IMG/VR virus record: IMGVR_UViG_3300021364_000005
Strand: one strand, 5' to 3'
Source: a virus
Taxonomy: Duplodnaviria > Caudoviricetes
Length of the DNA stretch: 64,000 nt
Made by a program: the position numbers and the translations under genes
Shown here: positions 42,661 to 42,738 of the stretch, one piece after another
Position numbering within the stretch: the first letter of the stretch is position 1
Layout of the letters: the number at the start of each line of letters is the position of its first letter
The notes under the pieces: generated by a model
The model's input: the letters and a program-made list of their open reading frames with translations, nothing else
Told to the model about the DNA's origin: nothing
Databases searched by the model: none

Positions 42661-42738
42661 AGTTGTTACTTCGTAACAACTAGTTTTCGCTTTCGCTCAA
42701 ACTACATACTTCGTATAATAATAAGTGCGAAGCACTTA
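42661..42738. repeat. Cluster of four short palindromes with GAA/GAAA loops
   Basis: AGTTGTTAC-TTC-GTAACAACT (42661-81), TAGTTT...GC-TTTC-GC...AAACTA (42681-704), ATAC-TTC-GTAT (42706-16) and TAAGTGC-GAA-GCACTTA (42722-38). Confidence 0.9.

What the first reader, a model, noticed from the sequence alone, without database searches (positions are those of the whole stretch)
42661..42738. Four GAA-loop mini-hairpins at the 3' end of the RNA: a DNA-level signal?
Seen: within 78 bp there are three palindromes with a 3-nt loop closed by C-G, plus one GC-GAAA-GC. The GAA loop reads on the minus strand for two of the three and on the plus strand for GTGC-GAA-GCAC. Established: d(GCGAAGC)-type GNA triloops are exceptionally stable in ssDNA but not in RNA, and such hairpins occur in N4 virion-RNAP promoters and ssDNA origins. 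Inference: this may be a cruciform/ssDNA signal such as a replication origin primed by the upstream RNA (R-loop, as in T4 origins or ColE1 RNA II), a packaging site or the nuclease substrate. It would be an alternative or complement to the RNA-guided model.
Basis: partly seen in the sequence, partly recalled or inferred. Interest (0 to 1): 0.65.

Follow-up and report, generated by a model that had tools for sequence, protein, structure and literature searches.

The report
Conserved mini-hairpin tail behind phage RNA
The four tiny hairpins are real and are this phage's copy of a conserved tail that ends a nuclease-linked structured RNA gene in hundreds of marine T4-like phages; their loops and flawless stems follow the rules of ultra-stable DNA hairpins, not those of the neighbouring RNA, but what they signal is untested.

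Summary
Observation confirmed and extended. Positions 42661-42738 hold four hairpins, here called D, C, B and A. Three of the window's six C-(GAA/TTC)-G triloop hairpins lie in these 78 bp.

In 110 distinct relatives from IMG/VR the same order follows the structured RNA: A, an AT-rich spacer with or without B, then C and D.
- The stems of A and D covary freely and are perfect Watson-Crick palindromes: 0 G.T in 1790 pairs, against about 13.5% G.U in the RNA core.
- Loops stay within the DNA mini-hairpin repertoire (GNA, GNNA, GAAB). They read that way on the RNA-sense strand for B, C and D and on the opposite strand for A.
- Such loops are not favoured in other hairpins of these phages.
- The exact 20-nt hairpin C also caps multi-copy REP-like palindromes in distant bacteria.

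Most likely this is the end module of the RNA gene: A plus a U-rich run terminates it, and C and D cap or insulate it. The palindromes are probably maintained, and perhaps read, as single-stranded DNA.

Origin, packaging-site and nuclease-substrate roles have no direct support. Earlier notes of this scan describe the same kind of cluster in a related genome and mini-hairpin families elsewhere.

The parts
42722..42738 (-). Hairpin A. Perfect 7-bp palindrome; the loop reads TTC in the RNA sense and GAA (heptamer GCGAAGC) on the + strand. In the RNA sense a T-rich run follows.
   Evidence: It is conserved in position in relatives with covarying stems (7 of 10 pairs change on both sides). Loops in 110 unique relatives: cTTCg 61, cATTCg 17, cTACg 9, cTTACg 7. 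Mean 4.6 T in the 9 nt after the stem.
42706..42716 (-). Element B. A 4-bp stem with a GAA loop on the minus strand; the conserved core is ACGAAGT.
   Evidence: ACGAAGT is present in 67 of 110 relatives. A complementary ACTTC lies upstream in the spacer in 33 of the 66 that carry CGAAGT. Some relatives lack B, so it is optional.
42682..42703 (-). Hairpin C. Outer stem GTTT/AAAC, tandem G.A pairs, and the GCGAAAGC mini-hairpin on the minus strand. It is the most conserved element of the tail.
   Evidence: The inner pair covaries (C-G to T-A in 3 relatives). Loops: GTTA 38, GATA 35, GTAA 20, GCAA 8, GAAA 2. The exact 20-mer pattern was found once per contig in at least 120 IMG/VR contigs, nearly always behind the RNA.
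42661..42681 (-). Hairpin D. Perfect 9-bp palindrome with a GAA loop on the minus strand. Read on the + strand it is followed by a T-rich run and abuts the stop of the 66-aa gene.
   Evidence: All 9 pairs change on both sides among relatives. Loops: cGAAg 46, cTTTAg 20, cGTAg 10 and others. The stem is 8-9 bp in 105 of 110 relatives.
42739..42752 (-). Conserved 3' end of the RNA core (ATCTAC paired to an upstream GTAGGT, then ATGAA), directly before hairpin A.
   Evidence: pairs 349-354 with 498-503.
42741..43149 (-). Structured non-coding RNA core. This is context and the subject of another finding.
   Evidence: 60 consensus pairs, 14 with compensatory changes and many G.U pairs. No Rfam match.
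43150..43590 (-). Gene for a 146-aa protein consisting of a SegE-type GIY-YIG domain only, upstream of the RNA.
   Evidence: PF19835, E 1.2e-33.
42460..42660 (+). Convergent 66-aa gene whose stop codon abuts hairpin D.
   Evidence: Diverged protein homologues that keep a conserved C-terminus lie convergent with the tail in L153, L048 and L075.

Best explanation
The 78 bp are the local copy of a conserved tail that closes the gene of the nuclease-associated structured RNA.

Proposed working:
- Hairpin A plus its U-rich run ends the RNA.
- The AT-rich spacer, hairpin C (constant sequence) and hairpin D (variable stem) form a cap or insulator. It sits between the RNA gene and whatever lies downstream: a late promoter in about half of the relatives, a convergent small gene here. 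In this respect it resembles the REP/BIME palindromes at bacterial gene ends.
- The palindromes are built and maintained as DNA hairpins. Their loops are the GNA, GNNA and GAAB types that make DNA mini-hairpins very stable. Their stems tolerate no wobble. A faces the opposite way from B, C and D.

Shown: conservation, covariation, the loop repertoire, the polarity, the absence of G.T, the exclusive linkage to the RNA, and identity of hairpin C to bacterial repeat caps.

Inferred: termination at A, a protective or insulating role for C and D, and upkeep of the perfect palindromes by folding of single strands during replication (quasi-palindrome template switching).
For: - The tail is present behind the RNA in all relatives with enough sequence, across diverged RNA core types.
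- The hairpin C pattern occurs once per contig.
- Covariation of A, C and D: 0 of 500 shuffles reach the observed score, and slid controls score far lower.
- The run after A is T-rich in the RNA sense (4.6 of 9, at least 5 in 67 of 101). The run after D is not (2.8 of 9). TAAATA lies within 14 nt after D in 58 of 110.
- 0 G.T and 1 mismatch in 1790 stem pairs; no wobble hidden at stem ends. The RNA core has about 195 G.U cells in 1440 (my own tally).
- About 90% of A loops belong to the DNA mini-hairpin set when read on the antisense strand. 68% of D loops belong to it on the sense strand, and none do on the other strand. The set is defined in PMC13037366.
- Other hairpins in 1.48 Mb of related phage DNA show no cGAAg preference.
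- The hairpin C 20-mer is multi-copy in distant bacteria, with 0 matches for the reversed control. 32 of 109 contexts carry a GTAGG-tagged REP.
Against: - No transcript ends are available, so termination at A and the extent of the RNA are unproven.
- The A and D stems are AT-rich and weak as RNA terminators compared with the window's classical GC-rich terminators at 27250 and 27696.
- REP elements are multi-copy, whereas this contig has a single copy.
- A purely RNA-level role cannot explain why A keeps the G...A loop rule on the strand that is not the RNA.
- A purely structural cap does not explain the near-invariant sequence of hairpin C.
- The relatives are phylogenetically related, so the counts overstate independent events.
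Confidence: 0.45

Rival explanations
1. A DNA-level signal in its own right. The mini-hairpins fold in single-stranded DNA and are recognised by replication, recombination or nuclease proteins.

The sharpest version is an RNA-primed start site. The structured RNA forms an R-loop in the AT-rich spacer after A. B, C and D then lie on the displaced non-template strand as a priming or helicase-loading signal, and A does the same on the other strand for the opposite fork. Known parallels are ColE1 RNA II with its primosome site, the T4 R-loop origins, the G4 origin hairpin and the RSF1010 ssiA/ssiB signals.
For: - Loop repertoire and polarity. B, C and D sit on the strand that the RNA would displace.
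- The spacer is 80% A+T.
- No wobble in the stems.
- Known mini-hairpins occur at the G4, St-1 and alpha3 origins (GCGAAAGC, GCGTTAGC), in RSF1010 ssiA and in N4 promoters (PMC13037366).
- The element is single-copy and keeps its position next to the gp46/gp47 recombination nuclease genes.
Against: - The GC-skew turn lies at about 47.5-48 kb and follows gene orientation, not at 42.7 kb.
- The same hairpin C is multi-copy in bacterial genomes, where it cannot be an origin.
- T4-type primase is not known to need hairpins (my own knowledge).
- No iterons or other origin features were seen.
- No N4-type polymerase was found among the giant ORFs.
Confidence: 0.27
2. Purely RNA-level. The tail is a pair of face-to-face intrinsic terminators plus a 3' exonuclease block. 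In either direction the first hairpin met reads c-UNC-g in the transcript and is followed by a U-rich run: A for the RNA, D for transcripts coming from the other side. On this reading the DNA-like loop grammar is incidental.
For: - T-rich runs follow A in the sense direction and D in the antisense direction.
- The simple scan flags both hairpins as terminator-like on the + strand.
- A convergent, conserved 66-aa gene ends at D in the window.
- Selection on both transcribed strands would also forbid G.U.
Against: - Most relatives have a co-directional gene with a late-promoter-like box after D, so nothing converges there.
- U...C loop ends have no known stabilising role in RNA, whereas G...A on the complementary strand does in DNA.
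- It does not explain the conserved word ACGAAGT (B) or the invariant hairpin C, most of whose loops are non-GNRA.
- The window's other terminators are GC-rich with different loops.
Confidence: 0.18
3. Selfish or neutral palindromic mini-elements of the REP/BIME or MITE kind. They lodged at the border between a conserved gene block and a variable region and persist through template switching, with no function for the phage.
For: - The hairpin C 20-mer is a dispersed repeat cap in several bacterial phyla.
- D stems look replaced rather than gradually diverged.
- The tail sits where downstream gene content differs among relatives.
Against: - It is single-copy per phage contig and strictly linked to one RNA family over large divergence.
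- The order and polarity of the elements are fixed.
- No RAYT-type gene was seen in the window.
Confidence: 0.1

Closest known systems
DNA mini-hairpins GCGNAGC / GCGNNAGC (Hirao and colleagues; review PMC13037366)
   Same: Hairpin C contains GCGAAAGC (GCGTTAGC, GCGATAGC or GCGTAAGC in relatives; one relative has the triloop form). Hairpin A contains GCGAAGC on the + strand. Loop variants in relatives stay within the sets reported to form the fold: GNA, GBAA, GABA, GTTA and GAAB.
   Different: B and D have C-G closure but A-T as the second pair. The stems are long (8-10 bp), so stability does not depend on the cap alone. Folding in DNA in vivo has not been shown here.
REP / BIME / REPIN palindromic elements of bacteria (RAYT-associated; PMC3116915)
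   Same: These are short palindromes at gene ends, with units in alternating orientation. The exact 20-nt hairpin C caps GTAGG-tagged REP-like hairpins in Methylococcales and dispersed palindromes in other phyla. REPs are known as mRNA 3' stabilisers and as single-strand DNA substrates (my own knowledge).
   Different: The contig has one copy, not many. No RAYT gene was seen. A and D are not inverted copies of each other. The stems are perfect, not imperfect. The element is tied to one RNA gene.
Intrinsic (Rho-independent) and bidirectional terminators
   Same: A hairpin followed by a T-rich run, with an A-rich run before it, placed at the end of an RNA gene and between convergent genes in the window.
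   Different: The stems are AT-rich. The loops are conserved with strand polarity. An extra invariant hairpin C and the word B are present. D has no T run in the RNA sense.
Single-strand initiation signals and R-loop origins (G4/St-1/alpha3 origin hairpin I, RSF1010 ssiA/ssiB, ColE1 RNA II with its primosome site, T4 oriF/oriG)
   Same: Mini-hairpin-capped hairpins on opposite strands next to an AT-rich stretch, directly after a long structured RNA.
   Different: No evidence of initiation, and no skew turn at the site. The cognate primases are not those of T4-type phages. The bacterial copies of hairpin C are multi-copy.
Phage N4 virion RNA polymerase early promoters
   Same: A stem closed by C-G with a GAA or GGA triloop that extrudes from duplex DNA.
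   Different: N4 stems are 5-7 bp. The two giant ORFs of the window are structural proteins, not a virion polymerase. The phage has a T4-type late sigma factor.

Membership tests
DNA mini-hairpin motif (GCGNAGC / GCGNNAGC) | Sequence G-C, C-G, then a loop G-N-A or G-N-N-A, closed by the two G-C pairs | tested here: met
   GCGAAGC at 42727-42733 (+) and GCGAAAGC at 42689-42696 (-). B and D have only the C-G closing pair plus A-T.
DNA mini-hairpin motif (GCGNAGC / GCGNNAGC) | Loop variation confined to the variants that form the fold (GNA; GAAA, GBAA, GABA, GTTA; GAAB weaker) | tested here: met
   C: 105 of 110 loops are GNNA tetraloops. A: about 90% are in the set on the antisense strand. D: 68% are in the set on the sense strand.
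DNA mini-hairpin motif (GCGNAGC / GCGNNAGC) | The fold exists in single-stranded or extruded DNA | not testable with these tools
   Only nearest-neighbour predictions are available. Melting and nuclease probing are needed.
Intrinsic terminator | Stable stem-loop directly followed by a U run in the transcript | tested here: inconclusive
   A has at least 5 T of 9 in 67 of 101 relatives, but its stem is AT-rich. D has no T run in the RNA sense. On the + strand both pass a simple scan.
Intrinsic terminator | Transcript 3' ends map after the hairpin | not testable with these tools
   No transcript data are held.
REP / BIME / REPIN | Many dispersed copies in one genome | tested here: not met
   There is one copy of the hairpin C core in the 64-kb window and one copy of the RNA-tail region (window 42600-43200) in the 82-kb contig. 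The contig is incomplete.
REP / BIME / REPIN | Cognate RAYT (Y1 transposase) gene and a GTAG tag beside an imperfect palindrome | tested here: not met
   There is no GTAG tag beside A, C or D and the stems are perfect. A RAYT gene was not specifically searched for across the contig.
N4-type hairpin promoter | Phage encodes a giant virion RNA polymerase that reads extruded hairpins | tested here: not met
   The 3564-aa and 2884-aa ORFs match structural and baseplate families only. The rest of the genome is not available.
Replication origin (R-loop or ssi type) | Compositional or strand-bias switch, or mapped initiation, at the site | tested here: not met
   Cumulative GC skew reaches its minimum at about 47-48 kb, where gene orientation flips, with no turn at 42.7 kb.

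The most novel reading that the evidence does not exclude
The tail is a strand-polar single-stranded-DNA signal coupled to the RNA. The structured RNA ends in an R-loop in the AT-rich spacer. The ultra-stable mini-hairpins B-D on the displaced strand, and A on the template strand, then act as loading, priming or cleavage landmarks. This would make the small nuclease, the RNA and the hairpins one replication- or recombination-initiating unit of marine T4-like phages. The same hairpin C cap in bacterial REP-like repeats would be read by a widely shared host factor.
Probability: 0.12. Interest if true: 0.8.

Novelty: new variant of a known kind. Interest (0 to 1): 0.5.

Why it matters
Natural roles for DNA mini-hairpins are documented in only a few cases: the G4-type origins, RSF1010 ssiA and the N4 promoters.

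Here a four-part, strand-polar set of such hairpins is conserved behind a new RNA family in hundreds of abundant marine phages. Its evolutionary signature (no wobble, a DNA-type loop set) differs sharply from that of the RNA next to it. That makes it a clean natural test case for asking whether hairpins fold and act in DNA in vivo.

The 20-nt hairpin C links phage RNA genes to REP-like repeats of unrelated bacteria. If a common factor reads this cap, it would bear on how REP-type elements work.

For annotation, the tail is a reliable marker of the 3' end of this RNA family.

Tried and rejected
- **Rfam.** Gathering and permissive searches of the window, and of bacterial loci carrying hairpin C, found no family covering the tail.
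- **Cultured phages.** blastn of the locus against cultured phage genomes found nothing. A protein search found Methylophilales phage Melnitz with a 67.6% identical GIY-YIG homologue but no RNA and no hairpin C. The tail therefore goes with the RNA, not with the nuclease alone.
- **N4-type promoter idea.** Rejected for lack of a virion polymerase among the giant ORFs.
- **Genome-wide terminator grammar.** Rejected: other hairpins of the window and of 1.48 Mb of relatives do not favour cGAAg.
- **Kissing between the A and D loops.** Rejected: the loops vary independently, for example TGC with GAA, TTC with GCA, and TTC with ATA.
- **One large palindrome centred on C.** Rejected: the stems of A and D differ within each phage.
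- **Physical genome ends or a pac site.** Contig ends near the locus are scattered through the RNA and cluster at a dimorphic hairpin, as assembly breaks would.
- **Downstream variability.** Single-linkage tblastx clustering of downstream DNA was too permissive to quantify it.
- **Literature.** Searches found no description of this RNA or tail.

Full report
**Setting**

The window is part of an 81.9-kb IMG/VR contig of a T4-like marine phage. It carries a late sigma factor gp55, the gp46/gp47 nuclease pair, a gp26-like baseplate hub gene, giant structural ORFs, a manA RNA and a glutamine riboswitch.

On the minus strand the local order is: gp47, gp46, a 69-aa ORF, a 146-aa GIY-YIG-domain-only gene (43590-43150, PF19835 E 1.2e-33), about 410 nt of non-coding DNA (43149-42741), and then the 78 bp of the finding. 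A 66-aa gene on the + strand (42460-42660) converges on it.

Read on the + strand:
- 42661-42681 is a perfect 9-bp palindrome with a TTC loop closed by C-G.
- 42706-42716 is a 4-bp stem with the same loop.
- 42722-42738 is a 7-bp palindrome with a GAA loop, containing GCGAAGC.
- 42689-42696 is GC-GAAA-GC on the minus strand. It lies inside a longer hairpin (42682-42703) with a GTTT/AAAC outer stem and tandem G.A pairs.

Only 6 of the window's 348 triloop hairpins have a C-(GAA/TTC)-G apex, and 3 of them are here. The chance of that is about 8e-9. The stretch folds better than its shuffles on both strands, as DNA or as RNA.

I name the elements in RNA-sense order: A (42722-38), B (42706-16), C (42682-703) and D (42661-81).

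**The tail is conserved in relatives**

The GIY-YIG protein has 585 relatives in IMG/VR. The best 80 loci are syntenic upstream, with gp47, gp46, the small ORF and the GIY-YIG gene in the same order.

BLAST similarity often stops at the RNA end, window position 42742. Reading the DNA beyond that point shows the same architecture everywhere:
- hairpin A;
- an AT-rich spacer (80% A+T) that carries the word ACGAAGT in 67 of 110 relatives;
- the nearly invariant hairpin C;
- hairpin D;
- then, in 58 of 110, a TAAATA late-promoter-like box within 14 nt.

The tail persists behind diverged forms of the RNA core (L061, L074, L038, L048) and behind a different non-coding stretch in L106. In L160 it follows an RNA whose upstream gene is a PDDEXK nuclease (PF24608, E 2.8e-25) instead of GIY-YIG.

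Each has one match. 89 show the GIY-YIG gene and the RNA end upstream, and most of the rest are cut too short to tell.

Methylophilales phage Melnitz is the closest cultured relative of the nuclease (67.6% identity). It has neither the RNA nor hairpin C. The tail therefore belongs to the RNA.

**The hairpins are selected structures**

On a 46-sequence alignment, 18 of 26 pairs change on both sides. Paired cells are 88.7% against 73.8% in shuffles. The covariation score is 0.323 against 0.098, with 0 of 500 shuffles reaching it, and slid controls score at most 0.089.

D stems fall into at least a dozen unrelated sequence types. All are 8-9 bp in 105 of 110 relatives.

**Signature 1: no wobble**

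Across 110 unique tails, the stems of A and D hold 833 + 957 pairs. There is no G.T and only a single mismatch. No wobble hides at the stem ends.

The RNA core next to the tail behaves like an RNA. In its 60 consensus pairs over 24 sequences I count about 195 G.U cells in 1440, which is 13.5%. Several of these G.U pairs are fixed.

Many changes in A and D are transversion flips (T-A to A-T), which have no wobble intermediate.

**Signature 2: loop repertoire and polarity**

Loop counts:

| Element | Strand read | Loops |
|---|---|---|
| D | RNA sense | cGAAg 46, cGTAg 10, cGGAg 3, cGTTAg 3, cGCAg 2, plus GNA loops closed by T-A; main exception cTTTAg 20 |
| C | RNA sense | GTTA 38, GATA 35, GTAA 20, GCAA 8, GAAA 2 |
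| A | RNA sense | cTTCg 61, cATTCg 17, cTACg 9, cTTACg 7, cTATCg 2 |

Read on the other strand, the A loops become GAA, GAAT, GTA, GTAA and GATA.

The review of mini-hairpin DNA lists exactly these classes as forming the fold: GNA triloops, and GAAA, GBAA, GABA, GTTA and (more weakly) GAAB tetraloops. It reports Tm 76.5 C for d(GCGAAAGC) against 39 C for the RNA version. It also lists natural cases at the G4, St-1 and alpha3 origins, RSF1010 ssiA and the N4 promoters (PMC13037366).

Two thirds of the hairpin C loops are not RNA-type GNRA. So B, C and D follow the DNA rule on the RNA-sense strand, and A follows it on the opposite strand.

This is not the general habit of these phages. Among 353 distinct long-stem hairpins elsewhere in 1.48 Mb of relatives, cGAAg is not among the 25 commonest apices. 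Near the tail it makes up 87 of 209. The window's classical terminators at 27250 and 27696 are GC-rich with other loops.

**An unexpected link to bacteria**

The exact 20-nt pattern of C occurs at least 120 times in one-per-species bacterial genomes. From pattern length and database size I estimate about 17 by chance; this is my own estimate.

The hits fall into families:
- the apex of GTAGG-tagged REP-like hairpins in Methylobacter and other Methylococcales (32 of 109 distinct contexts);
- dispersed palindromes in Rhizobium-like bacteria and in Melainabacteria;
- repeats in Streptococcus sanguinis;
- a multi-hairpin element in Candidatus Fimenecus. There TTC-loop hairpins precede C and GAA-loop hairpins follow it, which is the same polarity as in the phage.

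Five such genomes hold 3-15 copies of the 14-nt core each, against 0 for the reversed control. None of these elements is in Rfam.

Hairpin C is thus a widely used cap of REP-like palindromes. REP-type elements are known both as 3' stabilisers of transcripts and as single-strand DNA substrates of RAYT transposases (PMC3116915; my own knowledge for the GTAG tag).

**What it most likely is**

The position is directly after the closing helix of the RNA core (pairs 349-354 with 498-503). A is followed by a T-rich run in the RNA sense (4.6 T of 9; D has 2.8, which is background). Both make A the likely terminator of the RNA.

C and D then sit between that terminator and the next transcription unit. 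I read them as a cap or insulator of the REP/BIME kind.

In the window, D read on the + strand is followed by a T-rich run and abuts the stop of the 66-aa gene. That gene has diverged protein homologues in the same convergent position in three relatives. D may therefore also terminate that gene.

The wobble-free stems and the loop polarity are not explained by the RNA alone. I infer that the palindromes fold in single-stranded DNA, at least during replication. There, a change in one arm would be copied to the other by template switching within quasi-palindromes. This mechanism was first proposed for T4 (my own knowledge) and is untested here.

- *Origin.* The polarity fits an R-loop model: B-D lie on the strand that the RNA would displace, and the spacer is AT-rich. 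Against it, the GC skew turns at about 47.5-48 kb with gene orientation and not at the tail. The bacterial copies of C are also multi-copy.
- *N4-like promoter.* The giant ORFs are structural proteins.
- *Packaging site.* Contig ends near the locus are scattered and cluster where the RNA has two alternative hairpin forms. That is what assembly breaks look like.
- *Nuclease substrate.* This cannot be tested here. The tail occurs with GIY-YIG, with PDDEXK and (in L106) with neither recognised, so it is not tied to one nuclease.

**Verdict**

The DNA-level reading is partly supported by four independent sequence signatures, but its function is open.

I rate the end-module reading with DNA-level maintenance at 0.45, an autonomous single-strand DNA signal at 0.27, a purely RNA-level pair of terminators at 0.18, and selfish palindromes at 0.10.

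Earlier notes of this scan describe the RNA family, a similar hairpin cluster in a related genome, and cGNAg hairpin families in other organisms. I used them as leads only.

Noticed in passing
L160:9825-10343 (+) and the RNA plus tail that follow it (to about 10860): The same RNA type and tail follow a PDDEXK_15 nuclease gene (PF24608, E 2.8e-25) instead of a GIY-YIG gene. The RNA therefore pairs with two unrelated small nucleases.
   Followed up: partly
L106:1540-1850 (oriented as): A complete tail (A with a TTC loop, the exact hairpin C, D with a GTA loop) follows a different, shorter non-coding stretch. That stretch lies after small basic ORFs, with no recognised nuclease nearby.
   Followed up: partly
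L203-L322 (bacterial genome contigs): The exact 20-nt hairpin C is a multi-copy cap of REP-like palindromes: Methylococcales (with a GTAGG tag), Rhizobium-like bacteria, Melainabacteria, Streptococcus sanguinis and Candidatus Fimenecus. There are 3-15 copies per genome and none for the reversed control. None is in Rfam.
   Followed up: partly
window 42739-42752 and about 42815-42826 (minus strand): The word ACATGAA occurs twice near the RNA 3' end, once directly before hairpin A. In L035 both copies carry the same A-to-G change (alignment A2).
   Followed up: no
window about 43030-43080 (alignment A2 columns 113-160): The RNA has two alternative forms of one hairpin among relatives. Many IMG/VR contigs end at the start of this stretch, probably as assembly breaks caused by strain diversity.
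   Followed up: partly
window 39831-39849 (+): This is the window's only other long C-GAA-G hairpin (8-bp stem, GAA on the coding strand).
   Followed up: no
window 42460-42660 (+): The 66-aa ORF appears to be a real small gene. Homologues of 34-41% identity with a conserved C-terminal GRDPDLH lie in the same convergent position in L153, L048 and L075.
   Followed up: partly
L202 (Methylophilales phage Melnitz, MZ577097.1 30449-30889): A cultured phage carries a 67.6% identical GIY-YIG-only gene after its ribonucleotide reductase genes, without the RNA or the tail.
   Followed up: yes
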